This document shows positions 9,474 through 29,915 of a DNA stretch of 64,000 nt, one piece after another; the stretch's first letter is position 1; each line of letters begins with the position of its first letter. Position numbers and translations under genes: made by a program. A model generated the notes under the pieces. That model did not search any database and was not told the origin of the DNA. It saw nothing but the letters and a program-made list of their open reading frames with translations. The stretch is from contig CACEHM010000002.1 in assembly GCA_902559355.1 (NCBI GenBank), positions 171,246-235,245 on the forward strand. The letters are read 5' to 3'. This DNA comes from an uncultured Gammaproteobacteria bacterium. GTDB taxonomy: Bacteria > Pseudomonadota > Gammaproteobacteria > GCA-002705445 > GCA-002716945.

Positions 9474-10146
9474 ATAGAAAATAATTAATATCAGTATTGT
9501 TTGATAAAACAAACGATTCATCTATAGGGTTAAAATTTAATCCACTTATATCACTTAAATTATAATTATTATTTTCTACCATTTTTGATAGTTCATATGG
9601 CGTTATGAATTTTGCATATTGATGAGTTCCTTTTGGTACATAATTTAGGATATATTCAGCCATTATTTTAGCTAATATAAATGATTTCAGATTCCTGTTA
9701 ATTGTAGATAAAAACAATCCAGATTTTTTTGCGCTTAGCTCATTAATTTTTTTGATTAATTTATTTGGTTTGTCTATGTGCTCAATCATTTCAAAACAAA
9801 CAATAAAATCAAAATTGTCACTACCAGTAATGTCAAAAATAGATTTGTTAATATATTTTATATCATAATTTTTCTCTTCAGCATGTTGTCTAGCGATTGT
9901 GATTGATTTACTTGATGAGTCTATACCCGTTACTATAGCTCCTTGTTTATGTAATTGTTCAGAAAGAATCCCACCTCCACATCCAATATCTAAGACTCTT
10001 TTACCATGGATGTTACATTTTGATAATATATATTCTAGTCTTACGGGGTTTAATCTATGAAGAAGCTTATAGTGACCAGACTTATTCCACCAATCATAAG
10101 CGAATTCATCAAAATGGGATTCTTGATAAGACTCTTTTTTATTCAT
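9460..10146 (-). CDS. ubiG: ubiquinone biosynthesis O-methyltransferase
   Basis: Contains the SAM-binding motif VLDIGCGGGILSE. It is divergent from gyrA, as in enteric and pseudomonad synteny. Confidence 0.85.
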   Translation of the reverse strand: MNKKESYQESHFDEFAYDWWNKSGHYKLLHRLNPVRLEYILSKCNIHGKRVLDIGCGGGILSEQLHKQGAIVTGIDSSSKSITIARQHAEEKNYDIKYINKSIFDITGSDNFDFIVCFEMIEHIDKPNKLIKKINELSAKKSGLFLSTINRNLKSFILAKIMAEYILNYVPKGTHQYAKFITPYELSKMVENNNYNLSDISGLNFNPIDESFVLSNNTDINYFLYAEK

Positions 10147-11222
10147 TACATTTTATATTGTTCACCTGCTGACCATACATGAGTTAAGCTTTGCTTGTCA
10201 AGAATGCTTAGTTTGGGATTACAATTCTTATTTTTAAGAAGTTGATTTGATGTAAAGTCAAATAAGTTAAAAGATGCCTTATTACCTCTCTTTATAGATC
10301 CTGCAGATATGAAATTAGAAAAAAGGTTTGATGCATTTTCTGTAACACAGTTGATAATTTTATTTTTATCAAAAATATTATTTGGGTTAGTATCTAGTTT
10401 CTCAATTATTTTAATAATTTGGTATAAATCATATGAATTAAATGTTTCAGTTATCAAAACACATTTAGTTTTCTTTTCAAGTAGATGTAGGTATTTCATT
10501 ATATTATCAATACTTAATAATTCATTATATGAAATTATAGCTGTGATGTTCTTTTTTTTAAAATTAGTTATCCAATAATTATTTAAACTAAGAGCCCCAT
10601 GCAAGTAACTATTATTAATTAGATTTATTTCACTCCAAAAAGTTACTAGATCATTAATTTTTTCCTTGTCTGTTATATTTTGAAGACAATTTCCTTTGAT
10701 ATGTAAATTAATATCAATTTCATTTAAAATGGACGATAATTTTATAATAATATCTTGATCAAAATCTATAATATTATTTAGACTTATACAAAACTGCTTA
10801 CTTGAATCAGATTTATAAAAGTCCAACACATCAGTCATTTCCTTTATGTCTGCCTGCTGAATGGTTTTCCCATCTAGTTCTATTATATGAACTATATCTA
10901 CCTGACTAATATCAATACTCATTATATCTTTATAATTCTTGCCATGTATGCATAATCTGGTGACACCGTTTTTTAATAATGACTTCATTTTTGTTTCAAC
11001 TTCTATTTTATTTAAACAATTATTTGAATTAAGATAGCTTTCTGTAAATGTAGGCATTAATACATGGTTTGGATATTCGATTCTAGATATTCCTTTGTAC
11101 TTTTTTTCAATAGTTTCATTTTTTAAAATTTCTGTAATTATAGGACCATCTATCAGAATAGATTTATCTATTTCTAGTTTAGTATTGTTCAAATAAATCC
11201 ATTTTGGAGATACAATTAACAT
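10146..11222 (-). CDS. amidohydrolase-family protein (TRZ/ATZ, MtaD-like), possibly catalytically degenerate
   Basis: The C-terminal GSIKRGNKASFNLFDF resembles the amidohydrolase G-S-[IL]-E-x-G-K-x-A-D-hhhhD motif. The N-terminal HVLMPTFTESY occupies the position of HVLMPGLIDAHTH, so the HxH metal ligands are not conserved. Its position upstream of ubiG matches mtaD in pseudomonads. Confidence 0.4.
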   Translation of the reverse strand: MLIVSPKWIYLNNTKLEIDKSILIDGPIITEILKNETIEKKYKGISRIEYPNHVLMPTFTESYLNSNNCLNKIEVETKMKSLLKNGVTRLCIHGKNYKDIMSIDISQVDIVHIIELDGKTIQQADIKEMTDVLDFYKSDSSKQFCISLNNIIDFDQDIIIKLSSILNEIDINLHIKGNCLQNITDKEKINDLVTFWSEINLINNSYLHGALSLNNYWITNFKKKNITAIISYNELLSIDNIMKYLHLLEKKTKCVLITETFNSYDLYQIIKIIEKLDTNPNNIFDKNKIINCVTENASNLFSNFISAGSIKRGNKASFNLFDFTSNQLLKNKNCNPKLSILDKQSLTHVWSAGEQYKM

Positions 11223-23848: not shown

Positions 23849-24870
23849 TTATGTTAAATATTCTAGTGTCTGCATTTCATTAAGTCTACTTTTACATCTT
23901 CTCCAAAGTTCTATAAGTTTATCACCTGTATAAATATGATTATATGAGCAGTTATTAAAAAAAAATTTAATCTTTATTTTGTTTCTATAGCAAATATCTA
24001 TAAAGGATATAAACCTTCTGATAAGATCGGCTGAATCATCATTACAAATAATAAAATCATTTATAAAGATCCACTCTATGTTTTCTGACATCTCAATATA
24101 TTCTTTATCTCCTCCAGGCTCTTTGAAGAAGTCTGAAAAAGAAATCCATAAAAAATCACATGATGTTGCTTTACAACTAAAACTTCTAGAATTGATACAG
24201 TACTTTTTATTAAAAGTTAGATTTTCAAAATTATTTTTTAAAAACTTTACAATATCTTTATCATCATAATTTTGATTTACATTATCATTATACATATTAA
24301 CAATATTTCTTGATCTATAATCTACCAAGCCTTCTACTTTATATAGATTAATTGATTCTTGCATAATCTTCATCTCATTAATAAACACTTCTCTCTGTAG
24401 ACCATTTTTATATAATTCTTCTGGATGTGTATTAGAAGTTAAATACAGAGTAACATTTAATTTAATGAGCTGATTTAGTAGGCTTCCGATAATCATCGCG
24501 TCTGATATATCCTCAACTTGAAATTCATCAATAAATATAACTTTACATTTTTTACTTAAAGATCTAGCTACAATATTCAAAGGATTTTTTTTACCTGACA
24601 AGCCAGATAATTCATCATGTACGATCTGCATGAGCTCCATGTAATGGAATGATGCTTTTCTTTCTGTTAGTAAATTAATAAAAGATTTTGTAATTAAAGT
24701 TTTACCTGTTCCAACATCTCCCCATATATAGAAACCTTTCTTGGAATCTTTATTTTCTAATTTATTTGTTAAATCTTTTTCAGGTTGAATAGATTCAATC
24801 ATTTTGTGAATCAAATCTGATTGTGCTGAATCTAATTTAATCCCTCTTTTTTTTAAACTTTTTTCAATAT
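23849..24870 (-). CDS. zapE: AFG1-family ATPase (cell division protein ZapE)
   Basis: Walker A IWGDVGTGKT and Walker B VIFIDEFQVEDI. I chose the ATG at 24870 (MFEYIEKSL...). The ORF is open upstream to 24982, but only by reading through a tRNA fragment. Confidence 0.7.
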
Positions 24871-24888
24871 ACTCAAACATTTTTTTAA

Positions 24889-24940
24889 TACCACTGATCG
24901 GACTCGAACCGATACTTTCTTGCGAAAAAGGGATCTTGAG
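24889..24940 (-). pseudogene. 3' half of a split tRNA-Leu(CAA) gene: anticodon 3' stem, variable arm, T-arm, acceptor 3' strand
   Basis: The minus strand reads CTCAAGA-TCCCT-TTTTCGCAAGAAAGT-ATCGG-TTCGAGT-CCGAT-CAGTGGT-A. This gives a T-arm with a GGTTCGAGTCC loop, a GNRA-capped variable hairpin, and an acceptor 3' strand complementary to GCCACTG at 29674-29680. Confidence 0.7.
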
Positions 24941-24999
24941 TGCATTGTCTGCACCAACCCAACAGTTACAAGATTTTAACACATTTTTTAATATTTTTT

Positions 25000-25028
25000 T
25001 TACATAAGATATTCATAAGTGCTATAAT
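25000..25028 (+). promoter_or_regulatory. sigma70-like promoter (TTACAT-17 nt-TATAAT)
   Basis: -35 TTACAT at 25000-25005, a 17-nt spacer, and a perfect -10 TATAAT at 25023-25028. An AAGGAGA Shine-Dalgarno sits 7 nt before the ATG at 25097. Confidence 0.4.
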
Positions 25029-25096
25029 AGAGTCTGTCTTGATTTAGAAATTACTCTACTTGCTGGGACATTAAACAAACGCTAAAGGAGAATATA

Positions 25097-25279
25097 ATGA
25101 AATTATCTATTCAGACTATCAAAGACTATTTCAAAAGTAAAAAAGATAAAAATAAAGATCTCATCTTTTTTGAAGAAATAGGAAATCAAAAAACTTCTAA
25201 AGATGACATCATGAAAAATTTGGTCAAGATCTTAGAAAAAAAAGGTTTCAAATATATAGATACAAAATATAAAGACTAA
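25097..25279 (+). CDS. small charged hypothetical protein (60 aa), first gene of the insertion
   Basis: Strong SD (AAAGGAGA), a promoter upstream and a terminator 20 nt downstream. I recognise no homolog. Confidence 0.45.
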   Translation: MKLSIQTIKDYFKSKKDKNKDLIFFEEIGNQKTSKDDIMKNLVKILEKKGFKYIDTKYKD

Positions 25280-25300
25280 ACACATATAATTGTGTAATAC

Positions 25301-25343
25301 AAAAAGAGAGTAACGAGTGCATCTCAACTACTCTCTTTTTTTG
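25301..25343. terminator. rho-independent terminator (bidirectional: A-run / hairpin / T-run)
   Basis: AAAAA-AGAGAGTA-(16-nt loop with inner GAG/CTC pairing)-TACTCTCT-TTTTTTT. Confidence 0.5.
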
Positions 25344-25411
25344 TGATAATCCATTCAATCTGATATCTATCCGATCAACAATCCTACTCTATACAGATTG
25401 TAGTAGAAAAT

Positions 25412-25440
25412 TTGACTTACAAATATCAGTAAACATAATA
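25412..25440 (+). promoter_or_regulatory. candidate sigma70 promoter for the five-gene cassette (TTGACT-17 nt-ATAATA)
   Basis: -35 TTGACT at 25412-25417, a 17-nt spacer, and -10 ATAATA at 25435-25440, about 70 nt upstream of the 25511 ATG. Confidence 0.35.
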
Positions 25441-25510
25441 ATTATTTTTCATAATAAAAAAGTATTTTTTTTTACTTGCTTTTATTATTTATCAGAATAA
25501 AGATACTAAT

Positions 25511-26134
25511 ATGGATAAAGAAAAAATTAAAAATAAAATCTTAGATATTGAAACCAAGTATAATTTTACCGAGGGATACAAATTGCTATATTGTCCATGG
25601 TCAACTATTGAACACTCTTCGATTGCGTTTATATCATTAAACCCTGGCAGTAAAATGCCTGATGAGGCAGATATTAGATTGTTATCTGATGAGAGAGGTA
25701 ATTCATATGAAATAGAAATGCATACTACTAAATCTCCTATTACTCATCAATTTTTAGAACTGTGCAAACTTCTCAATAAGAATCCCTCAGATATTCTTAC
25801 TGGCACAATTTGTCCATTTAGAGGTAAATCATGGACATCATTTTCTCGTGATCAGAGAAATGCAGGTCTAATGCTAGGCAAATATTTCTGGCACAAAACT
25901 CTAGATAAGATTAACTTACTCATTTGCGTTGGTAATGATGTTGCAAAAAATATGACTTCTATTTCTGATTTTAAAAAAGAGAAAATTTTTGATTCAGGTT
26001 GGGGTGATATTAAAATAACAAGATATAAAGACAGCACAGGTAAGATACTTATTCATTTACCACACCTCTCTACTTTTAAACTTTTTTCTCGAAAAGAGTG
26101 CTTACTTGTTCTAAAACAAGTTTTTAAGTTATAG
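25511..26134 (+). CDS. hypothetical protein with UDG-superfamily (uracil-DNA glycosylase fold, family 4/SMUG-like) motif pattern
   Basis: IAFISLNPGSKMPDEAD resembles UDG motif 1 (hhhhG-x-[NA]-PG followed by acidic residues). HQFLELCKLL matches the following helix. TICPFRGKSW...LLICVGNDVA resembles the V-x-C-RP..NR...hhV-LG region. The C-terminal HLPHLS resembles UDG motif 2 (HPSPL). This is a recalled pattern match, not a database hit. Confidence 0.45.
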   Translation: MDKEKIKNKILDIETKYNFTEGYKLLYCPWSTIEHSSIAFISLNPGSKMPDEADIRLLSDERGNSYEIEMHTTKSPITHQFLELCKLLNKNPSDILTGTICPFRGKSWTSFSRDQRNAGLMLGKYFWHKTLDKINLLICVGNDVAKNMTSISDFKKEKIFDSGWGDIKITRYKDSTGKILIHLPHLSTFKLFSRKECLLVLKQVFKL

Positions 26135-26149
26135 ACTATAATTTAAATA

Positions 26150-27226
26150 ATGATTGATATACATGATAAACTGCCCTCTGATCTAATTATTGGCAATGAA
26201 TATACTAAACAAGAATTAGATAAGTTGTTTAAGACATCTGAAATTGAAAACATTTATGGGGGTATTGGAAAGATAAATAATCGTTTAATCTTGCTTATCA
26301 CTCTAGACAAAACCTACACCGCAGAACTTCCTAAAAATGAGTCTGAAATGTCAAGAGAAGAGAAGGAAGAGCATAATTATCGTCATCTTGACTATTTTGA
26401 TATGGAGGAAAATATTTTCTGTTGGGATGGACCTACTAATATGAATCTTGAGAGTCCTTTAATAAAAGACTTTACCTCAAAATTATATCAATGCCTGTTG
26501 TTTGTTAGAGAGTATTATCATAAAGATGAATATGAATTTAAGAATAAAATTACTAATGATAAGTATTTTTACTGTGGGAAGATAAGATATCAAAAACATA
26601 TTGATACTAAAATTAAACATTTTATTTCAAGTTTAGAAGATGAACCTAATAAGAAACTTAATCATTTATATAAATTCATACCGACTGAATTAGATGAAAG
26701 AAAGAAAGAATTTAATATCTTAAAAGAAAAAGAGAAAAATGATTTTATTGAGTTAGTGCATCAAGAAGAATCTCGCACTCATGAAAGGAAAAGCACTTTT
26801 TCTGGAAATCCAGGCATTAAAAAAGAGTATATGGTTGAAAGTAACCTCAAAGCAGTATGCGGTTTTCTTAATGAAAGAGGTGGTAACCTTATGATTGGTA
26901 TCGAAGACGATGGGGAGGTTACTGGTATAGAGAAAGATTATAATTATAAAGACAATGATCAATTTGAGAGACATATTCTTTTTCAAATGAGAAAACTAAT
27001 GGATAAATTTGAAGTAATTGAAAAATATATTAAGTTTCAATTTGAATATGCTTCTTTAAGTGATAAAGACTCATCTAGAAAAATAGTATGTAGAATAAAT
27101 TGTAGACCATTACCTGATGATGAAGTTTCTTATGTTAACGGTAAACTTTATTTAAGAGTAGGACCCCAAACTAATGAATTAAGTGTAAAAGAGGCGTTAT
27201 CATGGTTAAAGAGAAGACAAAAGTAA
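26150..27226 (+). CDS. protein with C-terminal AlbA_2 / Schlafen-like (divergent AAA-4) domain
   Basis: EESRTHERKSTF...AVCGFLNERGGNLMIGIEDDGEVTGIEKD matches the AlbA_2 signature (E-S-x-T-x-E-[FY]-K ... A-F-x-N-x-x-GG-x-L-x-IG-V-x-D-D-G-x-V-x-G-I). I recognise no family for the N-terminal ~190 aa. Confidence 0.5.
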   Translation: MIDIHDKLPSDLIIGNEYTKQELDKLFKTSEIENIYGGIGKINNRLILLITLDKTYTAELPKNESEMSREEKEEHNYRHLDYFDMEENIFCWDGPTNMNLESPLIKDFTSKLYQCLLFVREYYHKDEYEFKNKITNDKYFYCGKIRYQKHIDTKIKHFISSLEDEPNKKLNHLYKFIPTELDERKKEFNILKEKEKNDFIELVHQEESRTHERKSTFSGNPGIKKEYMVESNLKAVCGFLNERGGNLMIGIEDDGEVTGIEKDYNYKDNDQFERHILFQMRKLMDKFEVIEKYIKFQFEYASLSDKDSSRKIVCRINCRPLPDDEVSYVNGKLYLRVGPQTNELSVKEALSWLKRRQK

Positions 27227-27636
27227 AGATATACCAAGGTGGTTCAACAGGTTTAGTTCAACAAAATAAACGCATGATTATGAAGTCTTCTCACACCAAA
27301 GGTGATGTAGGGATTCAAAGACAATTAAAAGATATGTTAAAAGCGAAATTTTCTTTTCATATAGTAATTATGCACTTTGGTGATTTTTTCAGGATAATCG
27401 AAGAGGACGCAGAGTTTTTTAATAAAGAATTTAATTTTAAACTTTCACAACCAGGACGATACACTTTCGTTACAACTGCGTTCCCTCTAAATAGTAGGCA
27501 AAAATATATAGATAAACTTACTGATATGGAAAAACAATTTTGTCTTCTAGATCAATATAAAGTTGACGGTACAGAGGAATTTTATAGGAAGGTAAACATA
27601 TCAACAAATAAAGATGCACTAGGGTTCTGGTACTAA
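27202..27636 (+). CDS. stand-alone MutS domain I (mismatch-recognition domain)-like protein
   Basis: [45 protein letters not shown] parallels E. coli MutS [71 protein letters not shown] parallels [28 protein letters not shown]. The GDF-Y-E Glu is Arg here (GDFFR). The gene overlaps the upstream ORF by 25 nt; an alternative start is the Met at 27274. Confidence 0.5.
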   Translation: [144 protein letters not shown]

Positions 27637-27656
27637 ATAAGAGAAGTCTCTAGTTC

Positions 27657-28352
27657 ATGATTGATATAACTTTTGATATGTTCTCGGATACTCCTGAAGG
27701 AAAAGATCCAGATACATGGAGTCCAACGTTAAGAAAGTACCATCAAATTTTATGGAATAAACGATTACCCAATGGAACTATGTTTAGTCTTGATCTTGAG
27801 ACAAGACAGTTATTACATCACAGATCTCAATTAGGAGAATTTTATTTATCAAGTGATTGTATAGGTCATACATACAGTCGTACTAAAAGTATTTCTGATA
27901 TAGTCAATCAGATTCCCTTAAGTGAAATAGATTCGTTTTATAAACTATGTAGCACAATAGGTTCTTATATCATATATCCTTGCAAAAGAATTGATAATAA
28001 GATGACATTTAATGGTGCTCGAGGTACTAATCGCAAGATAAAAGATAGATTCGACCTAACATTAGAATGTATTCGATTGTTTTATCAAAATGAAAAAAGT
28101 CCACTTAGTGAGACTATAGAAAGATATAAATCATATTTTAAACTATTTGATAACTTTCAAGGTTATGTTGATTTCTTTTTACTTCAAGATTTAGTATCAA
28201 GTGATTATTCGTCTATTAAATATCTTATACCTTTTAAAGATTTCGATAGTCCAGCACTACCATGCAACGTAGAAGAATATATTACTTATAAAGATAATAC
28301 GACAAAATTTATTTCACAAAGAAATGAAAGAATATTAAAATCAATACAATGA
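27657..28352 (+). CDS. hypothetical protein (orphan, 231 aa)
   Basis: Tightly linked to its neighbours (ATGA overlap with the next gene). I recognise no motif. Conserved-looking stretch: DPDTWSPTLRKYHQILWNKRLPNG. Confidence 0.5.
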   Translation: MIDITFDMFSDTPEGKDPDTWSPTLRKYHQILWNKRLPNGTMFSLDLETRQLLHHRSQLGEFYLSSDCIGHTYSRTKSISDIVNQIPLSEIDSFYKLCSTIGSYIIYPCKRIDNKMTFNGARGTNRKIKDRFDLTLECIRLFYQNEKSPLSETIERYKSYFKLFDNFQGYVDFFLLQDLVSSDYSSIKYLIPFKDFDSPALPCNVEEYITYKDNTTKFISQRNERILKSIQ

Positions 28353-29419
28353 GTAAATTTAAACCTATCTTATACGACGAACTATTTAAATTAATAACAC
28401 TTGGTGATGATGAAGAATGGGAAAAATTTTCTTCAGAGTACGAACATGTCTTTACACCAGGGTTTTTCTCACAACTTTCTGACACCGAAATTTATGAACT
28501 ATTTAATCATTATCAATTTTTATCCATTGAATATTGGAATATTTATTCTTCTTCATTAATTAACTCAGAGAATAATAAAATTAGATCCAATCAACTTCTA
28601 AAAAAATATCGTGAAATATGGGAAGGAAAAACACATAATAAAAATAGCACAGTCACTCCTGGAATTAACGAAAGAAAAATTAAAGAAATTGATGATTTTG
28701 AATTTGCAATTAATTATCCAGTCGAGGAAATATTAGATCCATCATTAAGCGCCGCAGGACCACATTTCTCAGAGATTGTATTTTGTTCAATACTTTATAG
28801 TTTTTTTGAGGAAATACTAACAACCTTCGTATTTAATGTATCTGGAAGTAAGTGTTTTTTTAATAATATAAAATATAAAGATCATTACTTCTATAAAACA
28901 AATAGATATACAGACTTGTATAAAGATTATATGAAACATTCAATCAAAGAACCAAAGAGAAAAGACTATAAGAATTTAGATGATTTTTATTCGGAAAGAT
29001 TAAGATATAGAAACATTACTAAAAAAAGTCTTCCTGAAATTAAAAACAATGAATGGTTAGAGTTTTATAGAAATAATAAGGGTATTGATGGTCGAGAAGT
29101 CCCTGATTACATTATTAAAGCAAAATATATAGATCAAAGATGTGACAGTACATTATATTCTGACTTAATATCACAGAGTAGATTTAAAGAATTCAAAATT
29201 AAAAGGAACAATGTGATGCATGCAAAATCAAATGAATCTAATATATCAACTCTTGCATGTTTTGATATTATAACTGATTTGCTTAACTTCTTAATTAATG
29301 ATAAGAATATTATCAATCAATATTCTAGTTGTATAAGTCAAAACAGTCTAAGATTTGATATTGATAAATTAGATGACGATGATGCTATTTGGGTATTTCA
29401 ATCTGAGATGACTTATTAA
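28349..29419 (+). CDS. hypothetical protein with C-terminal HEPN/Abi_2-like R-x4-H motif (candidate RNase effector)
   Basis: The C-terminal FKIKRNNVMHAKSNESNISTLACFDII contains an R-N-x-x-x-H motif typical of HEPN abortive-infection proteins. Size and composition are compatible with AbiD/AbiF-like proteins. Weak. Confidence 0.35.
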   Translation: MSKFKPILYDELFKLITLGDDEEWEKFSSEYEHVFTPGFFSQLSDTEIYELFNHYQFLSIEYWNIYSSSLINSENNKIRSNQLLKKYREIWEGKTHNKNSTVTPGINERKIKEIDDFEFAINYPVEEILDPSLSAAGPHFSEIVFCSILYSFFEEILTTFVFNVSGSKCFFNNIKYKDHYFYKTNRYTDLYKDYMKHSIKEPKRKDYKNLDDFYSERLRYRNITKKSLPEIKNNEWLEFYRNNKGIDGREVPDYIIKAKYIDQRCDSTLYSDLISQSRFKEFKIKRNNVMHAKSNESNISTLACFDIITDLLNFLINDKNIINQYSSCISQNSLRFDIDKLDDDDAIWVFQSEMTY

Positions 29420-29425
29420 TATTTA

Positions 29426-29509
29426 TAGCGATAGACAGACTCGAACTGTCACTCTGTTGCCAGAATCGGATTTTGAGTCCGACGCGTCTACCAATTCCGC
29501 CATATCGCC
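29426..29509 (-). tRNA. tRNA-Leu (anticodon CAA), class II with long variable arm
   Basis: Cloverleaf read manually on the minus strand: acceptor GGCGATA/TATCGCT (G1-U72), D-arm GCG-GAATTGGTAGA-CGC, anticodon arm TCGGA-CTCAAAA-TCCGA, variable hairpin TCTG-GCAA-CAGA, T-arm GACAG-TTCGAGT-CTGTC, discriminator A, and no encoded CCA. Confidence 0.85.
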
Positions 29510-29640
29510 ATGAGTAATTTATTCTATCAAAAACACAAACACTTTGGAAAGGTGTATGTACGGATAAATGTTTGTGCAATGTTTGTGACTAAAATTTACA
29601 AATTATAAGCATTACCAAGGCATCTGATGCATCCGTCTTC

Positions 29641-29680
29641 GTTTTGAGTCCCTCGTGTCTACCAATTCCACCACAGTGGC
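29641..29680 (-). pseudogene. 5' half of the split tRNA-Leu(CAA): acceptor 5' strand, D-arm, anticodon 5' stem and loop
   Basis: The minus strand reads GCCACTG-TG-GTG-GAATTGGTAGA-CAC-G-AGGGA-CTCAAAA, then diverges into GAAGACGG... with no anticodon 3' stem or T-arm. AGGGA pairs with TCCCT in the fragment at 24929-24933. Confidence 0.65.
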
Positions 29681-29717
29681 ATAATATTATTTATTTATGT
29701 GTTATCATTACAGAATA

Positions 29718-29915
29718 ATGGATTATATCACATATATTGTTCTCATTGTTCTCGTAATATTCGGTGTCATATATTTTAAAAAACAGTTTTTACTCTCTAG
29801 AGATATTCGTTTAGAAGATACAACACTAGAAGAACTAGATGAAAAATTAAAAAAGCATAAATTAATTGGCGGACGCCATAAAAGAACTAATAAAAAGAAC
29901 CCGCCAATAGTTTAG
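29718..29915 (+). CDS. small single-TM hypothetical protein
   Basis: MDYITYIVLIVLVIFGVIYF gives a TM helix followed by a charged tail. The ORF track starts 21 nt earlier, at 29697. Confidence 0.3.
   Translation: MDYITYIVLIVLVIFGVIYFKKQFLLSRDIRLEDTTLEELDEKLKKHKLIGGRHKRTNKKNPPIV

What the first reader, a model, noticed from the sequence alone, without database searches (positions are those of the whole stretch)
24889..29680. tRNA-Leu(CAA) gene split in its anticodon loop by a ~4.7 kb insertion that carries a replacement tRNA-Leu
The two halves of one class-II tRNA-Leu lie about 4.7 kb apart on the minus strand. The 5' half at 29680-29641 has the acceptor strand GCCACTG, the D-arm and AGGGA-CTCAAAA. 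The 3' half at 24940-24889 has CTCAAGA-TCCCT, a GNRA-capped variable arm, a T-arm with a GGTTCGAGTCC loop, and the acceptor strand CAGTGGT. The acceptor stems and anticodon stems of the two halves pair with each other, and the 7-10 bp core (G.ACTCAA.A) is directly repeated at both junctions. Neither half can fold alone. Just inside the right junction sits a complete tRNA-Leu(CAA) with different stem sequences, which is a replacement copy. This is the signature of site-specific integration into the tRNA anticodon loop, but no integrase gene remains. It is also unusual that the element supplies a whole tRNA rather than reconstituting the host 3' half.
Basis: seen in the sequence. Interest (0 to 1): 0.85.

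Follow-up and report, generated by a model that had tools for sequence, protein, structure and literature searches.

The report
Split tRNA-Leu with island-borne replacement tRNA
In this marine SAR86-type bacterium a 4.7 kb island of probable defence genes sits in the anticodon loop of the tRNA-Leu(CAA) gene, splits it without repairing it, and carries its own complete tRNA-Leu(CAA); this trick has so far been shown only for some temperate phages, and here it recurs and is even nested in related genomes with no integrase in sight.

Summary
On the minus strand, 29680-29642 and 24940-24889 are the two halves of one tRNA-Leu(CAA), here called A. Joined in silico they give a tRNA-Leu call; neither half does alone. 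Both halves are identical to an uninterrupted gene that lies at the same place, between the small membrane ORF and zapE, in related SAR86-like genomes.

The 4701 bp between them is bounded by two copies of the 7-nt anticodon loop (CTCAAAA and CTCAAGA). It starts with a conserved 132-nt "head" followed by a complete tRNA-Leu(CAA), B (29509-29426). It ends with a conserved pseudo-promoter and pseudo-5'-half.

Related metagenome contigs show the same pattern. Every junction sits at the loop. Ordinary elements that restore the tRNA use the same site. A homologous head carries a third tRNA (C), and in two contigs B itself is split by the C head.

No recombinase was found in any array. The cargo looks defence-related.

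The closest precedent is "tRNA-dependent lysogeny" of actinobacteriophages (Hatfull lab, 2024). This is a new variant: non-phage, integrase-less, serial. The recombinase, and whether B really replaces A in function, remain inferred.

The parts
29649..29680 (-). 5' half of host tRNA-Leu(CAA) 'A': acceptor 5' strand GCCACTG, D arm, anticodon-stem 5' strand AGGGA
   Evidence: Sequence. Identical to the intact gene in L002-L004, L012-L015, L040, L041 and L083. Not called as a tRNA alone.
29681..29708 (-). Promoter-like site upstream of the 5' half of A (ATGATA-16-TATTAT)
   Evidence: Consensus scan only. This flank is shared with empty-site genomes.
29642..29648 (-). Left copy of the crossover core O = anticodon loop CTCAAAA
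   Evidence: This is the junction position in the window, L008, L032 and L034. The homology to the intact tRNA stops exactly after it.
29510..29641 (-). Head spacer 'sp1' (132 nt). It carries direct repeats CACAAACATT at 29587-29578 and 29576-29567, an inverted copy at 29544-29534, and an extended -10 promoter-like site TTTCCA-18-TGnTAGAAT at 29550-29521.
   Evidence: 94-98% identical in L008, L021, L029, L032 and L034. Homologous over its full length to spacer sp2, which precedes tRNA C in L032, L034 and L036. Promoter scan.
29426..29509 (-). Complete island-borne tRNA-Leu(CAA) 'B': acceptor GGCGATA/TATCGCT, A73, long variable arm
   Evidence: ARAGORN. Rfam tRNA 60.1 bits against a gathering score of 29. 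Identical copies in L008, L021 and L029. Its halves are not compatible with those of A: 4/7 acceptor pairs and 3/5 anticodon-stem pairs.
28349..29419 (+). Cargo: 356-aa protein of unknown family with an invariant R286-x4-H291 (HEPN-like motif), predicted all-alpha
   Evidence: No Pfam, PADLOC, PHROGs, NCBIfam or PDB hit. About 10 relatives among 1.8 billion representatives. Alignment. AF2 model of low confidence, pLDDT 48.6.
27657..28352 (+). Cargo: DUF6994 protein (231 aa)
   Evidence: Pfam PF22507, E=3.4e-90. Also in the arrays of L032-L034 and L089.
27202..27636 (+). Cargo: small protein consisting only of MutS domain I (144 aa)
   Evidence: Pfam PF01624, E=1.1e-7. Homologues lie next to type I R-M genes in L029 and L032-L034.
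26150..27226 (+). Cargo: Schlafen/AlbA_2-domain protein (358 aa)
   Evidence: Pfam PF04326, E=5e-14. 96.7% DNA identity to a gene that lies in a different cassette of L032 and L033.
25511..26134 (+). Cargo: 207-aa protein of unknown family
   Evidence: No family hit. An 85% identical gene sits next to an R1 end in L032-L034.
24941..24985 (-). Right end 'R1' of the island: pseudo-promoter TGTTAAAAT plus decayed tRNA 5' half (GTAACTGTTGGGTTGGTGCAGACAATGCA)
   Evidence: Conserved about 45-nt block directly 5' of the loop in the window, L001, L032 (two copies), L033, L036 and L089. Nothing further upstream is conserved.
24934..24940 (-). Right copy of the crossover core O = CTCAAGA (one mismatch to the left copy)
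   Evidence: Sequence. Homology to the intact tRNA resumes here.
24889..24933 (-). Displaced 3' half of tRNA A: anticodon-stem 3' strand, variable arm, T arm, acceptor 3' strand CAGTGGT, A73
   Evidence: Identical to the intact gene in relatives. Followed by the true zapE start at 24856.

Best explanation
Shown by sequence comparison. The ancestral state is an intact, single tRNA-Leu(CAA) gene (A) between a small membrane-protein gene and zapE. In the window's lineage a 4.7 kb cargo island lies inside the 7-nt anticodon loop of that gene. The loop is duplicated at both ends. Neither junction gives a functional tRNA, because the halves of A, B and C pair only with their own partners. The island carries a conserved head module next to its left junction: a roughly 130-nt spacer with its own promoter-like site and repeated CA/TCAAACAT motifs, followed by a complete tRNA-Leu(CAA), B.

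Inferred mechanism. A site-specific recombinase exchanged strands within the loop between the chromosomal gene (attB) and an element site (attP). It is probably a tyrosine integrase, given the 7-bp overlap, the anticodon-loop position and the arm-like repeats. The attP would be [R1 pseudo-5'-half | loop | sp1]. Because this attP lacks a matching 3' half, integration inactivates A. B, transcribed from its own promoter, then decodes UUG in its place. This is the tRNA-dependent integration strategy known from some actinobacteriophages.

No array carries a recombinase gene, so the enzyme must be supplied in trans, by the host, a phage or an integrase-bearing relative. The arrays can then spread between strains by homologous recombination in the flanking core genes.

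All loop copies in an array are direct repeats. Further exchanges between them insert, delete and reshuffle cassettes. That would explain the nesting (A split by the B head, B split by the C head) and the mosaic cargo.

One likely consequence, also inferred: imprecise loss of the island removes the only intact tRNA-Leu(CAA), which would stabilise the island.
For: Empty sites with an intact A at the same locus occur in L002-L004, L012-L015, L040, L041 and L083.

Joining the halves in silico gives tRNA-Leu(caa). Rfam scores are A 57.0, B 60.1 and C 53.5 bits.

Cross-pairing of halves gives only 3-5 of 7 acceptor pairs and 2-4 of 5 anticodon-stem pairs.

Junction table: every junction lies at the loop.
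- Window and L008: [5'A|O|sp1] then B.
- L036: [5'A|O|sp2] then C.
- L032 and L034: [5'A|O|sp1][5'B|O|sp2] then C, followed by [R1|O|3'C], [R1|O|3'A] and, in L032, [X|O|3'A].
- L006, L007, L009, L010 and L082: classical restoring elements at the same core.

Heads sp1 and sp2 align over their whole length, with conserved repeats and a conserved -10. The R1 and X ends are conserved families.

Displaced 3' halves differ from the intact gene at 0-1 positions. The pseudo-5' halves differ at about 30-40% of positions (17-20 of 28 identical by eye). This fits host-derived 3' parts and element-derived 5' parts.

The GC content of the island equals that of its flanks. TTG makes up 9.5% of Leu codons in the core genes of the window.

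Experimental precedent for the strategy exists, including for tRNA-Leu-CAA: PMC10865867.
Against: No recombinase gene was found in the island, in the other window ORFs that were checked, or in any related array, including L032, which spans the site from flank to flank. The catalyst and its family are therefore pure inference.

No excised circle or attP junction [R1|O|sp1] was seen. The nearest thing is [X|O|sp1] in L021.

The window's R1 end lacks the repeated motif that the X ends and the heads carry, so this copy may no longer be mobile.

The island is a mosaic, so single-step integration is not shown.

Only 64 kb of the genome is visible, so a second tRNA-Leu(CAA) elsewhere cannot be excluded. 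tRNA-Leu(UAA) might also read UUG, as it does in E. coli (own knowledge). B may therefore not be strictly needed.

The two loop copies differ at one position (A versus G). Tyrosine recombinases usually disfavour a mismatch in the overlap.
Confidence: 0.7

Rival explanations
1. Two-step origin. The B-headed cassette first integrated into the non-functional attR remnant of a resident classical (restoring) element. That gave a tandem array like L021: intact A, element X, [X-end|loop|sp1], B, cargo, [R1|loop|3'A]. Excision of X between the loop of the intact A and the middle loop then removed the restored 3' half and left A split. On this reading the split is a by-product of array dynamics, not of a direct hit on the live gene.
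For: L021 shows exactly the proposed intermediate, with both A' and B intact and the junction [X|O|sp1]. Classical X elements are the commonest occupants of this site (5 of the 10 contigs shown). The arrays show other deletions between loop copies: there is no 3'B remnant in L032.
Against: L036 has the C head directly in A. L032 and L034 have the C head directly in B. In both, the expected 5' half lies upstream, so direct hits on whole tRNAs do seem to occur repeatedly. The two routes use the same chemistry and the same attP, so this is a variant of the main explanation rather than a contradiction of it.
Confidence: 0.25
2. This lineage never underwent integration. It received the whole finished array from another strain by homologous recombination in the flanking core genes (zapE side and queA side). 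This is the usual route for flexible genomic islands in streamlined marine bacteria.
For: No integrase was found in any array. The island's GC content matches its flanks. The same junctions and modules occur in strains with 81-98% identical flanks. Many assemblies break at this site, as expected for a population-level hypervariable island.
Against: This explains spread, not origin. Loop-exact junctions, conserved ends and nesting still require site-specific recombination somewhere in the history. It is compatible with the main explanation.
Confidence: 0.4
3. A transposon inserted with a 7-8 bp target-site duplication that happens to be the anticodon loop.
For: A short direct repeat flanks the insert.
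Against: There are no terminal inverted repeats: the score equals that of shuffles, with 63% of shuffles at least as high. There is no transposase. The same 7 nt serve as junction in A, B and C, for at least three different end families, and always in one orientation. The ends are a pseudo-tRNA half and a tRNA promoter region, not transposon ends.
Confidence: 0.04
4. A functional split tRNA gene, with the halves transcribed separately and joined as in Nanoarchaeum, or a giant intron in the anticodon loop.
For: The two halves pair perfectly with each other. A's promoter-like site is still present.
Against: The sequences after the 5' half and before the 3' half are no more complementary than shuffles: -16.3 against -13.9 +/- 3.4 kcal/mol, with 23% of shuffles at least as low. 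Rfam finds no intron or other RNA family in 24700-29900 at E<=1. The loop is duplicated rather than interrupted. The insert holds five antisense ORFs. Displaced 3' halves in other arrays carry point mutations that break stems. Related genomes have the uninterrupted gene.
Confidence: 0.01

Closest known systems
tRNA-dependent lysogeny of actinobacteriophages (Guerrero-Bustamante & Hatfull, mBio 2024, PMC10865867). Examples: Fionnbharth in tRNA-Lys-TTT, and Gaia with an 8-bp core in tRNA-Leu-CAA plus its own tRNA-Leu-CAA. Prophage Lj965 of Lactobacillus johnsonii is a further candidate.
   Same: - The common core inside a tRNA gene is short (7-8 bp here, 8-10 bp there).
- No functional tRNA forms at either junction.
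- The element encodes a complete tRNA of the same anticodon.
- Close relatives that use the same site restore the tRNA with a long core (Omega/Boilgate there, X-type elements here).
- Paired repeats flank the core.
   Different: - The element here is not a phage: there are no PHROG or structural genes.
- No integrase is encoded in cis.
- The cargo looks defence-related.
- The tRNA sits about 130 nt from the core in a conserved head module.
- The resident replacement tRNA is itself split by the next element, giving the nested order A, B, C.
- The host is a streamlined marine gammaproteobacterium.
- The requirement for the tRNA is untested here.
Classical tRNA-targeting genomic islands and prophages with anticodon-loop crossover (sublocation class of Williams 2002, from own knowledge; Islander database, PMC4383910 abstract)
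   Same: The crossover is in the 7-nt anticodon loop. A displaced host 3' fragment marks the far end. Successive integrations build tandem arrays. X-type elements at this very site behave classically.
   Different: Classical elements carry the 3' part of the tRNA and regenerate the gene, and they usually encode the integrase next to it. The window's island does neither.
Tycheposon-shaped genomic islands of Prochlorococcus (Hackl et al., bioRxiv 10.1101/2020.12.28.424599)
   Same: These are tRNA-anchored hypervariable islands in a streamlined marine bacterium. Partial tRNAs are scattered through the island. Most islands lack a resident integrase. Newer elements push older ones inward.
   Different: Tycheposons are defined by a specific tyrosine recombinase and replication genes, and they leave the full-length tRNA intact. 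tRNA-Leu is not among the seven target tRNAs listed in the passages read. No tycheposon hallmark gene was seen here.
Integron cassette arrays, and cis-mobilisable elements (CIMEs/IMEs) that borrow an integrase (own knowledge)
   Same: Cassettes without a recombinase are separated by copies of one recombination site. All have one orientation, and they are reshuffled by exchanges between sites.
   Different: No intI/attI platform flanks the array. The sites are tRNA loops with pseudo-tRNA arms, not attC hairpins. Trans-mobilisation here is inferred only.

Membership tests
tRNA-dependent integration (tRNA-dependent lysogeny type) | attB lies inside a tRNA gene, and attP shares only a short core, so no functional tRNA forms at attL or attR | tested here: met
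   The core is the 7-nt loop. ARAGORN and Rfam call no tRNA at either junction. The halves of A do not pair with island sequence.
tRNA-dependent integration (tRNA-dependent lysogeny type) | The element encodes a complete tRNA of the same isotype and anticodon as the disrupted gene | tested here: met
   tRNA-Leu(CAA) B at 29426-29509, 60.1 bits. The same holds for tRNA C in L032, L034 and L036.
tRNA-dependent integration (tRNA-dependent lysogeny type) | The element encodes the tyrosine integrase that carries out the exchange | tested here: not met
   No Phage_integrase or other recombinase hit in Pfam, PHROGs, NCBIfam or PADLOC for the island ORFs. None in the precomputed Pfam hits listed for the called genes of L032-L034, L036, L082 and L089. 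A regex for the catalytic motif was negative.
tRNA-dependent integration (tRNA-dependent lysogeny type) | The element is a temperate phage | tested here: not met
   No PHROG structural or lysis family. The head, tRNA B, tRNA C and the 3' half of A are all absent from IMG/VR. INPHARED phages match only the generic tRNA-Leu part.
tRNA-dependent integration (tRNA-dependent lysogeny type) | The element's tRNA is required for survival of cells that carry the element | not testable with these tools
   This needs genetics or a complete genome. The only indirect evidence is TTG codon use.
Classical tRNA-restoring genomic island | The island carries the 3' part of the target, so an intact tRNA is regenerated at one junction | tested here: not met
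   The left junction is 5'A|loop|CGAAGACGG..., which has no tRNA 3' half. X-type elements at the same site in L006, L007, L009 and L010 do regenerate A.
Tycheposon | Hallmark tyrosine recombinase (with replication or packaging genes) next to a full-length target tRNA | tested here: not met
   No such genes. The target tRNA is split.
Integron | An intI gene and attI site adjacent to the cassette array, with attC sites between cassettes | tested here: not met
   The flanks are a 72-aa ORF, a 147-aa ORF and queA on one side and zapE and pfkB on the other, all also present at empty sites. The inter-cassette sites are tRNA loops.
Split or intron-containing tRNA gene | Complementary leader/trailer sequences or an intron fold that lets the halves be joined at the RNA level | tested here: not met
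   Flank complementarity is not above shuffles. No Rfam intron was found.
Transposon with target-site duplication | Terminal inverted repeats and a transposase | tested here: not met
   The terminal-inverted-repeat score equals that of shuffles. No transposase was found.

The most novel reading that the evidence does not exclude
SAR86 populations may carry an integron-like cassette system whose recombination site is the anticodon loop of tRNA-Leu(CAA). Cassettes of probable defence genes, without a recombinase of their own, would be captured, stacked and shuffled by an unknown enzyme acting in trans. One cassette class overwrites the resident tRNA gene with its own promoter-equipped copy (A, then B, then C). 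Each new arrival would then become the only source of that tRNA, and the island could not be lost imprecisely: a form of tRNA addiction for a chromosomal island.
Probability: 0.25. Interest if true: 0.8.

Novelty: new variant of a known kind. Interest (0 to 1): 0.6.

Why it matters
Disrupting a tRNA gene and replacing it with an element-borne copy has been demonstrated only for a few actinobacteriophages.

- This finding places the same logic in non-phage islands of probable defence genes, in one of the most abundant uncultured marine bacterial groups.
- It shows the logic can iterate. A replacement tRNA becomes the next target, leaving a readable stack of half-genes that records the order of arrivals.
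- It offers a concrete explanation for how a hypervariable island is built and kept in a streamlined genome that shows no mobile-element genes at the site.
- It poses a sharp open question: which enzyme recombines anticodon loops in these cells.
- It matters for annotation. Automatic tRNA finders report one normal tRNA-Leu here and miss that the ancestral gene is dead and the live one is foreign.

Tried and rejected
**Searches for a phage or excised form (IMG/VR, all negative or chance)**
- tRNA B, the sp1 repeat block, the 3' half of A and tRNA C gave no hits.
- The double ACTCAAACAT motif gave three unrelated contigs of about 40% GC.
- A loose R1 pattern gave 37 chance hits.
- INPHARED phages matched only the generic tRNA-Leu part.

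**The single metagenome scan, for tRNA B**
- It returned only two relevant contigs, L021 and L029.
- The other 14 hits were high-GC soil tRNA-Leu genes that share the 24-nt centre.

**Search for a recombinase**
- Pfam, PADLOC, PHROGs and NCBIfam on the island ORFs.
- Pfam on ten window ORFs of Xer-like size; nine are housekeeping and one (10146-11222) has no family hit.
- A catalytic-motif regex over the window and the loci.
- The precomputed Pfam hits listed for the called genes of 12 look-ups around the 72-aa protein, MutS_I, ZapE and 356-aa homologues.
- None of these found a recombinase.

**The 356-aa protein next to tRNA B, the usual place for an integrase**
- It has no PDB or family match and a shallow family.
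- The AF2 model has pLDDT 48.6, too poor for a fold search, so none was run.
- Its invariant Rx4H and all-helical prediction point to a HEPN-like protein, not an integrase. This is not proven.

**Other rejected ideas**
- I first read the pseudo-5' halves as mimics of the particular target tRNA (A-like versus B-like). I dropped this when the R1 ends aligned as one family.
- The weak Rfam hits c-di-GMP-I (24.6 bits) and SAM_alpha (19.6 bits) are below their gathering scores and lie in coding or spacer DNA, so I treat them as chance.
- Literature searches for SAR86 islands or tycheposons at tRNA-Leu found nothing specific. Williams 2002 is not held in the library.

Full report
**1. What is there**

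The window has 30% G+C. Its genes match uncultured SAR86-type gammaproteobacteria. ARAGORN finds a single tRNA in the 64 kb, tRNA-Leu(caa) at 29425-29510 on the minus strand. Rfam places it at 29426-29509 with 60.1 bits. I call it B.

- 29680-29641 is GCCACTG TG GTGG AATTGGTAG ACAC G AGGGA CTCAAAA C.
- 24940-24889 is CTCAAGA TCCCT TTTTCGCAAGAAAGT ATCGG TTCGAGT CCGAT CAGTGGT A.

Neither region is called as a tRNA on its own. Joined at the loop, with either loop copy, ARAGORN calls tRNA-Leu(caa). The acceptor stem has 7 of 7 pairs and the anticodon stem 5 of 5.

**2. It is an insertion into a formerly intact gene**

I used ZapE, the gene just downstream of the 3' half, to fetch related loci.
- Genomes with 75-86% identical ZapE carry an uninterrupted tRNA-Leu(CAA) directly upstream of zapE: L002, L003, L004, L040, L041 and L083. 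Its sequence is exactly the two window halves joined.
- In L002 the upstream flank, with the small membrane ORF, is also the same as in the window.
- Metagenome contigs that encode the identical 72-aa neighbour also include empty sites: L012-L015.

The window differs from these by 4701 bp (29641-24941) plus a second copy of the 7-nt anticodon loop: CTCAAAA at 29648-29642 and CTCAAGA at 24940-24934. The same left junction appears in independent assemblies (L008, L032, L034). The same type of right junction appears in L001, L032, L036 and L089. The structure is therefore real and not a misassembly.

**3. Anatomy of the insert**

Immediately after the left loop copy comes a 132-nt spacer, sp1 (29641-29510). 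It contains:
- two direct CACAAACATT repeats;
- an inverted copy of the repeat;
- an extended -10 promoter-like site, TTTCCA-18-TGnTAGAAT.

Next comes the complete tRNA B. Five ORFs follow, all antisense to the tRNAs:
- a 356-aa protein of unknown family with an invariant Rx4H;
- a DUF6994 protein;
- a 144-aa protein that consists only of MutS domain I;
- a Schlafen/AlbA_2 protein;
- a 207-aa protein of unknown family.

None of them hits a recombinase, a phage family or a PADLOC model.

The insert ends with a conserved block of about 45 nt, which I call R1 (24985-24941). It consists of a pseudo -10 (TGTTAAAAT) and a decayed tRNA 5' half. The second loop copy and the untouched 3' half of A follow.

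The island's G+C (28.6%) equals that of its flanks.

**4. The same pattern recurs elsewhere**

I classified every loop-centred junction in all related loci.

| State | Loci | Structure |
|---|---|---|
| Empty site | L002-L004, L012-L015, L040, L041, L083 | [5'A\|O\|3'A] |
| Classical, restoring occupancy | L006, L007, L009, L010, L082 | intact A, a small cargo, then [X-end\|O\|3'A]; the X-end (in L082 a related end with sp1-type repeats) is a conserved block of about 85 nt with two ACTCAAACAT repeats, a pseudo-promoter and a pseudo-5' half |
| Replacement-type occupancy | window, L008 | [5'A\|O\|sp1] then B |
| Replacement-type occupancy | L036 | [5'A\|O\|sp2] then a third complete tRNA-Leu(CAA), C (53.5 bits), then [R1\|O\|3'A] and [X\|O\|3'A] |
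| Nested | L032, L034 | [5'A\|O\|sp1][5'B\|O\|sp2] then C, cargo, [R1\|O|3'C], type I R-M genes, [R1\|O\|3'A]; in L032 also two more genes and [X\|O\|3'A] before zapE |

In the nested arrays, B itself has been split in its own anticodon loop by a head that carries C.

sp1 and sp2 align over their whole length, with the repeats and the -10 conserved. The head (core, spacer, whole tRNA) is therefore an evolving module and not a chance capture.

A, B and C are 68-73% identical, with compensated stems. Any 5' half combined with a foreign 3' half gives only 3-5 of 7 acceptor pairs and 2-4 of 5 anticodon-stem pairs. A chimera cannot be a working tRNA, which explains why a whole gene has to be supplied.

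Displaced 3' halves carry 0-1 substitutions. The pseudo-5' halves are identical to the real 5' half at only 17-20 of 28 positions by eye. This asymmetry is what site-specific exchange at the loop predicts: 3' parts come from the host and are recent, 5' parts travel with the element and are old. Uniform pseudogene decay would not produce it.

**5. Further signs of exchange between loop copies**

- L021 has an intact A-like tRNA, a small cassette, then [X-end|O|sp1] followed by B. Both tRNAs are whole there. Excision of the first cassette between the two loops would produce the window's structure. This is a plausible alternative route.
- L089 has a non-functional hybrid, 5'D|O|3'B, and an internal [R1|O|3'A] remnant far from any zapE. 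The loop of a head tRNA can therefore itself be a crossover point, and remnants travel.
- L032 lacks a 3'B remnant, which implies a deletion between loop copies.
- The window's island is a mosaic of pieces that sit in different cassettes elsewhere:
  - the 207-aa gene is 85% identical to L032 9134-9749;
  - the SLFN gene is 96.7% identical to L032 248-1343;
  - the MutS-I gene is 84% identical to L032 2607-3032;
  - DUF6994, the 356-aa gene and B together are 93% identical to L089.
- No internal att remnant is left in the window island.

**6. Mechanism**

*Shown:* the position and duplication of the 7-nt loop, the conserved ends, the single orientation, and the co-existence of restoring and replacing elements at one core.

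*Inferred:* a tyrosine-type site-specific recombinase with a 7-bp overlap. The loop is flanked by the inverted anticodon-stem arms. This is the anticodon-loop sublocation known for integrases (Williams 2002, own knowledge; Islander abstract). The CA/TCAAACAT repeats look like arm-type sites.

I found no recombinase:
- in the island;
- among ten other window ORFs of suitable size, nine of them housekeeping and one without a family hit;
- with a catalytic-motif regex over all loci;
- in the called genes of any related array, including the 11.9 kb L032, which spans the site from flank to flank.

The 356-aa protein occupies the place next to the tRNA where an integrase would be expected. It has no family or PDB match, about ten relatives worldwide and an invariant R-x4-H. 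Its AF2 model is all-helical but of low confidence (pLDDT 48.6). It looks HEPN-like rather than integrase-like, but this is not proven.

The enzyme therefore most likely acts in trans. Arrays probably also spread by homologous recombination in the conserved flanks. Many assemblies break exactly at this site.

Whether B is needed is also inferred. TTG is 9.5% of Leu codons in the window's core genes, but only 64 kb of the genome is visible.

**7. Rivals tested**

- *Split-tRNA or intron processing.* The sequences adjoining the halves are no more complementary than shuffles: 23% of shuffles are at least as low. Rfam finds no intron.
- *Transposon with target duplication.* There are no terminal inverted repeats (63% of shuffles score at least as high) and no transposase.
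- *Assembly artefact.* Excluded by the independent assemblies listed above.
- *Phage.* There are no PHROG hits. The heads, B, C and the 3' half of A are absent from IMG/VR. INPHARED phages match only the generic tRNA-Leu part.

**8. Comparison with what is known**

The closest described system is tRNA-dependent lysogeny (Guerrero-Bustamante & Hatfull 2024, PMC10865867).
- Close relatives with a core of about 44 bp rebuild the tRNA.
- One example, Gaia, uses tRNA-Leu-CAA.
- The authors state that the prevalence outside actinobacteriophages is unknown.

The present case shares the defining logic and fails two membership features: an integrase in cis, and being a phage. It adds three new traits:
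- a conserved head module that places the tRNA about 130 nt from the core;
- serial overwriting (A, then B, then C);
- cassette-like arrays without a recombinase, in a streamlined marine bacterium.

It also resembles tycheposon-shaped islands of Prochlorococcus: a tRNA-anchored island with partial tRNAs, mostly without an integrase. Those leave the tRNA intact and are defined by hallmark genes that are absent here.

**9. Verdict**

I file it as a new variant of a known kind, with interest 0.6. The main open points are the identity of the recombinase and the functional status of B.

Noticed in passing
L032 11378-11718 (also L034 9885-10225): Nested replacement: the 5' half of A, spacer sp1, the 5' half of B, spacer sp2, then the complete tRNA-Leu(CAA) C. 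Further in lie a displaced 3' half of C joined to an R1 end (L032 ~9065) and two displaced 3' halves of A. No 3' half of B is left.
   Followed up: yes
L089 9046-9156, 7153-7260 and 1-300: A hybrid pseudo-tRNA made of the 5' half of a fourth tRNA (GCCCGGG...) and the 3' half of B. There is also an internal R1|loop|3'A remnant with 13 nt of the zapE-side flank, far from any zapE. An X-type end is joined through a CTTAAAA (UAA-type) loop to the 3' half of yet another class-II tRNA.
   Followed up: partly
L021 (rc) 60-145 and 820-1051: Two whole tRNA-Leu(CAA) genes lie 0.8 kb apart. A' has loop TTCAAAA and a TGTTATAAT promoter-like site that resembles the R1 pseudo-promoter. B follows, preceded by the un-recombined-looking junction X-end|loop|sp1.
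   Followed up: partly
L033 2813-2898: An R1-type end whose stretch from D stem to anticodon stem is identical to tRNA A (a conversion-like patch). ARAGORN calls it tRNA-Leu although the acceptor 5' strand is missing, so it is a false-positive tRNA call.
   Followed up: no
window 27202-27636; L029 196-612; L032 2610-3026: A family of proteins of about 140 aa that consist only of MutS domain I. There are 34 clusters, all from marine metagenomes, and the genes repeatedly lie next to type I restriction-modification genes in these islands. Function unknown.
   Followed up: partly
window 28349-29419; L088 10001-11068: The 356-aa protein has an invariant R286-x4-H291 (HEPN-like) and only about 10 relatives among 1.8 billion representatives. 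One homologue sits at the edge of a Dnd (DndC/D/E-like) island next to nth in another low-GC genome with no tRNA nearby. A possible link between a putative RNase and the adjacent variant tRNA is speculation.
   Followed up: partly
window 25511-26134: The 207-aa protein has no family hit. By eye it has UDG-superfamily-like motifs (SLNPG ... HLPHLS). An 85% identical copy sits next to an R1 end in L032-L034.
   Followed up: no
window 23849-24982 (-): The longest ORF for zapE starts at a GTG inside the island end and reads through the displaced 3' half of the tRNA. The real start is the ATG at 24856, as in relatives. Several database ZapE entries of 370-372 aa seem to carry the same spurious extension.
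   Followed up: partly
L084-L087 (contig ends 2-250 nt upstream of zapE): Several metagenome contigs stop at or near the loop or 3' half of the tRNA (L084 and L085 right at the loop), which fits a population-level hypervariable site that breaks assemblies.
   Followed up: no
L016-L031 except L021 and L029: The 24-nt centre of tRNA B (anticodon arm plus the start of the variable arm) is identical in tRNA-Leu(CAA) genes of high-GC (58-70%) bacteria, apparently from soil, while the acceptor and T stems differ.
   Followed up: no
window 24999-25028 (+) and 25300-25345: The best sigma-70-like match of the region (TTTACA-18-TGnTATAAT, 11 of 12) lies just inside the R1 end and points into the cargo. 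An inverted repeat followed by a T run that looks like a terminator follows the 60-aa ORF. All cargo genes in every array are antisense to the tRNAs.
   Followed up: no
window 27130-27213 (+) and 25026-25101 (+): Sub-threshold Rfam hits: c-di-GMP-I at 24.6 bits (gathering score 35) and SAM_alpha at 19.6 bits (gathering score 36). I treat both as chance.
   Followed up: no
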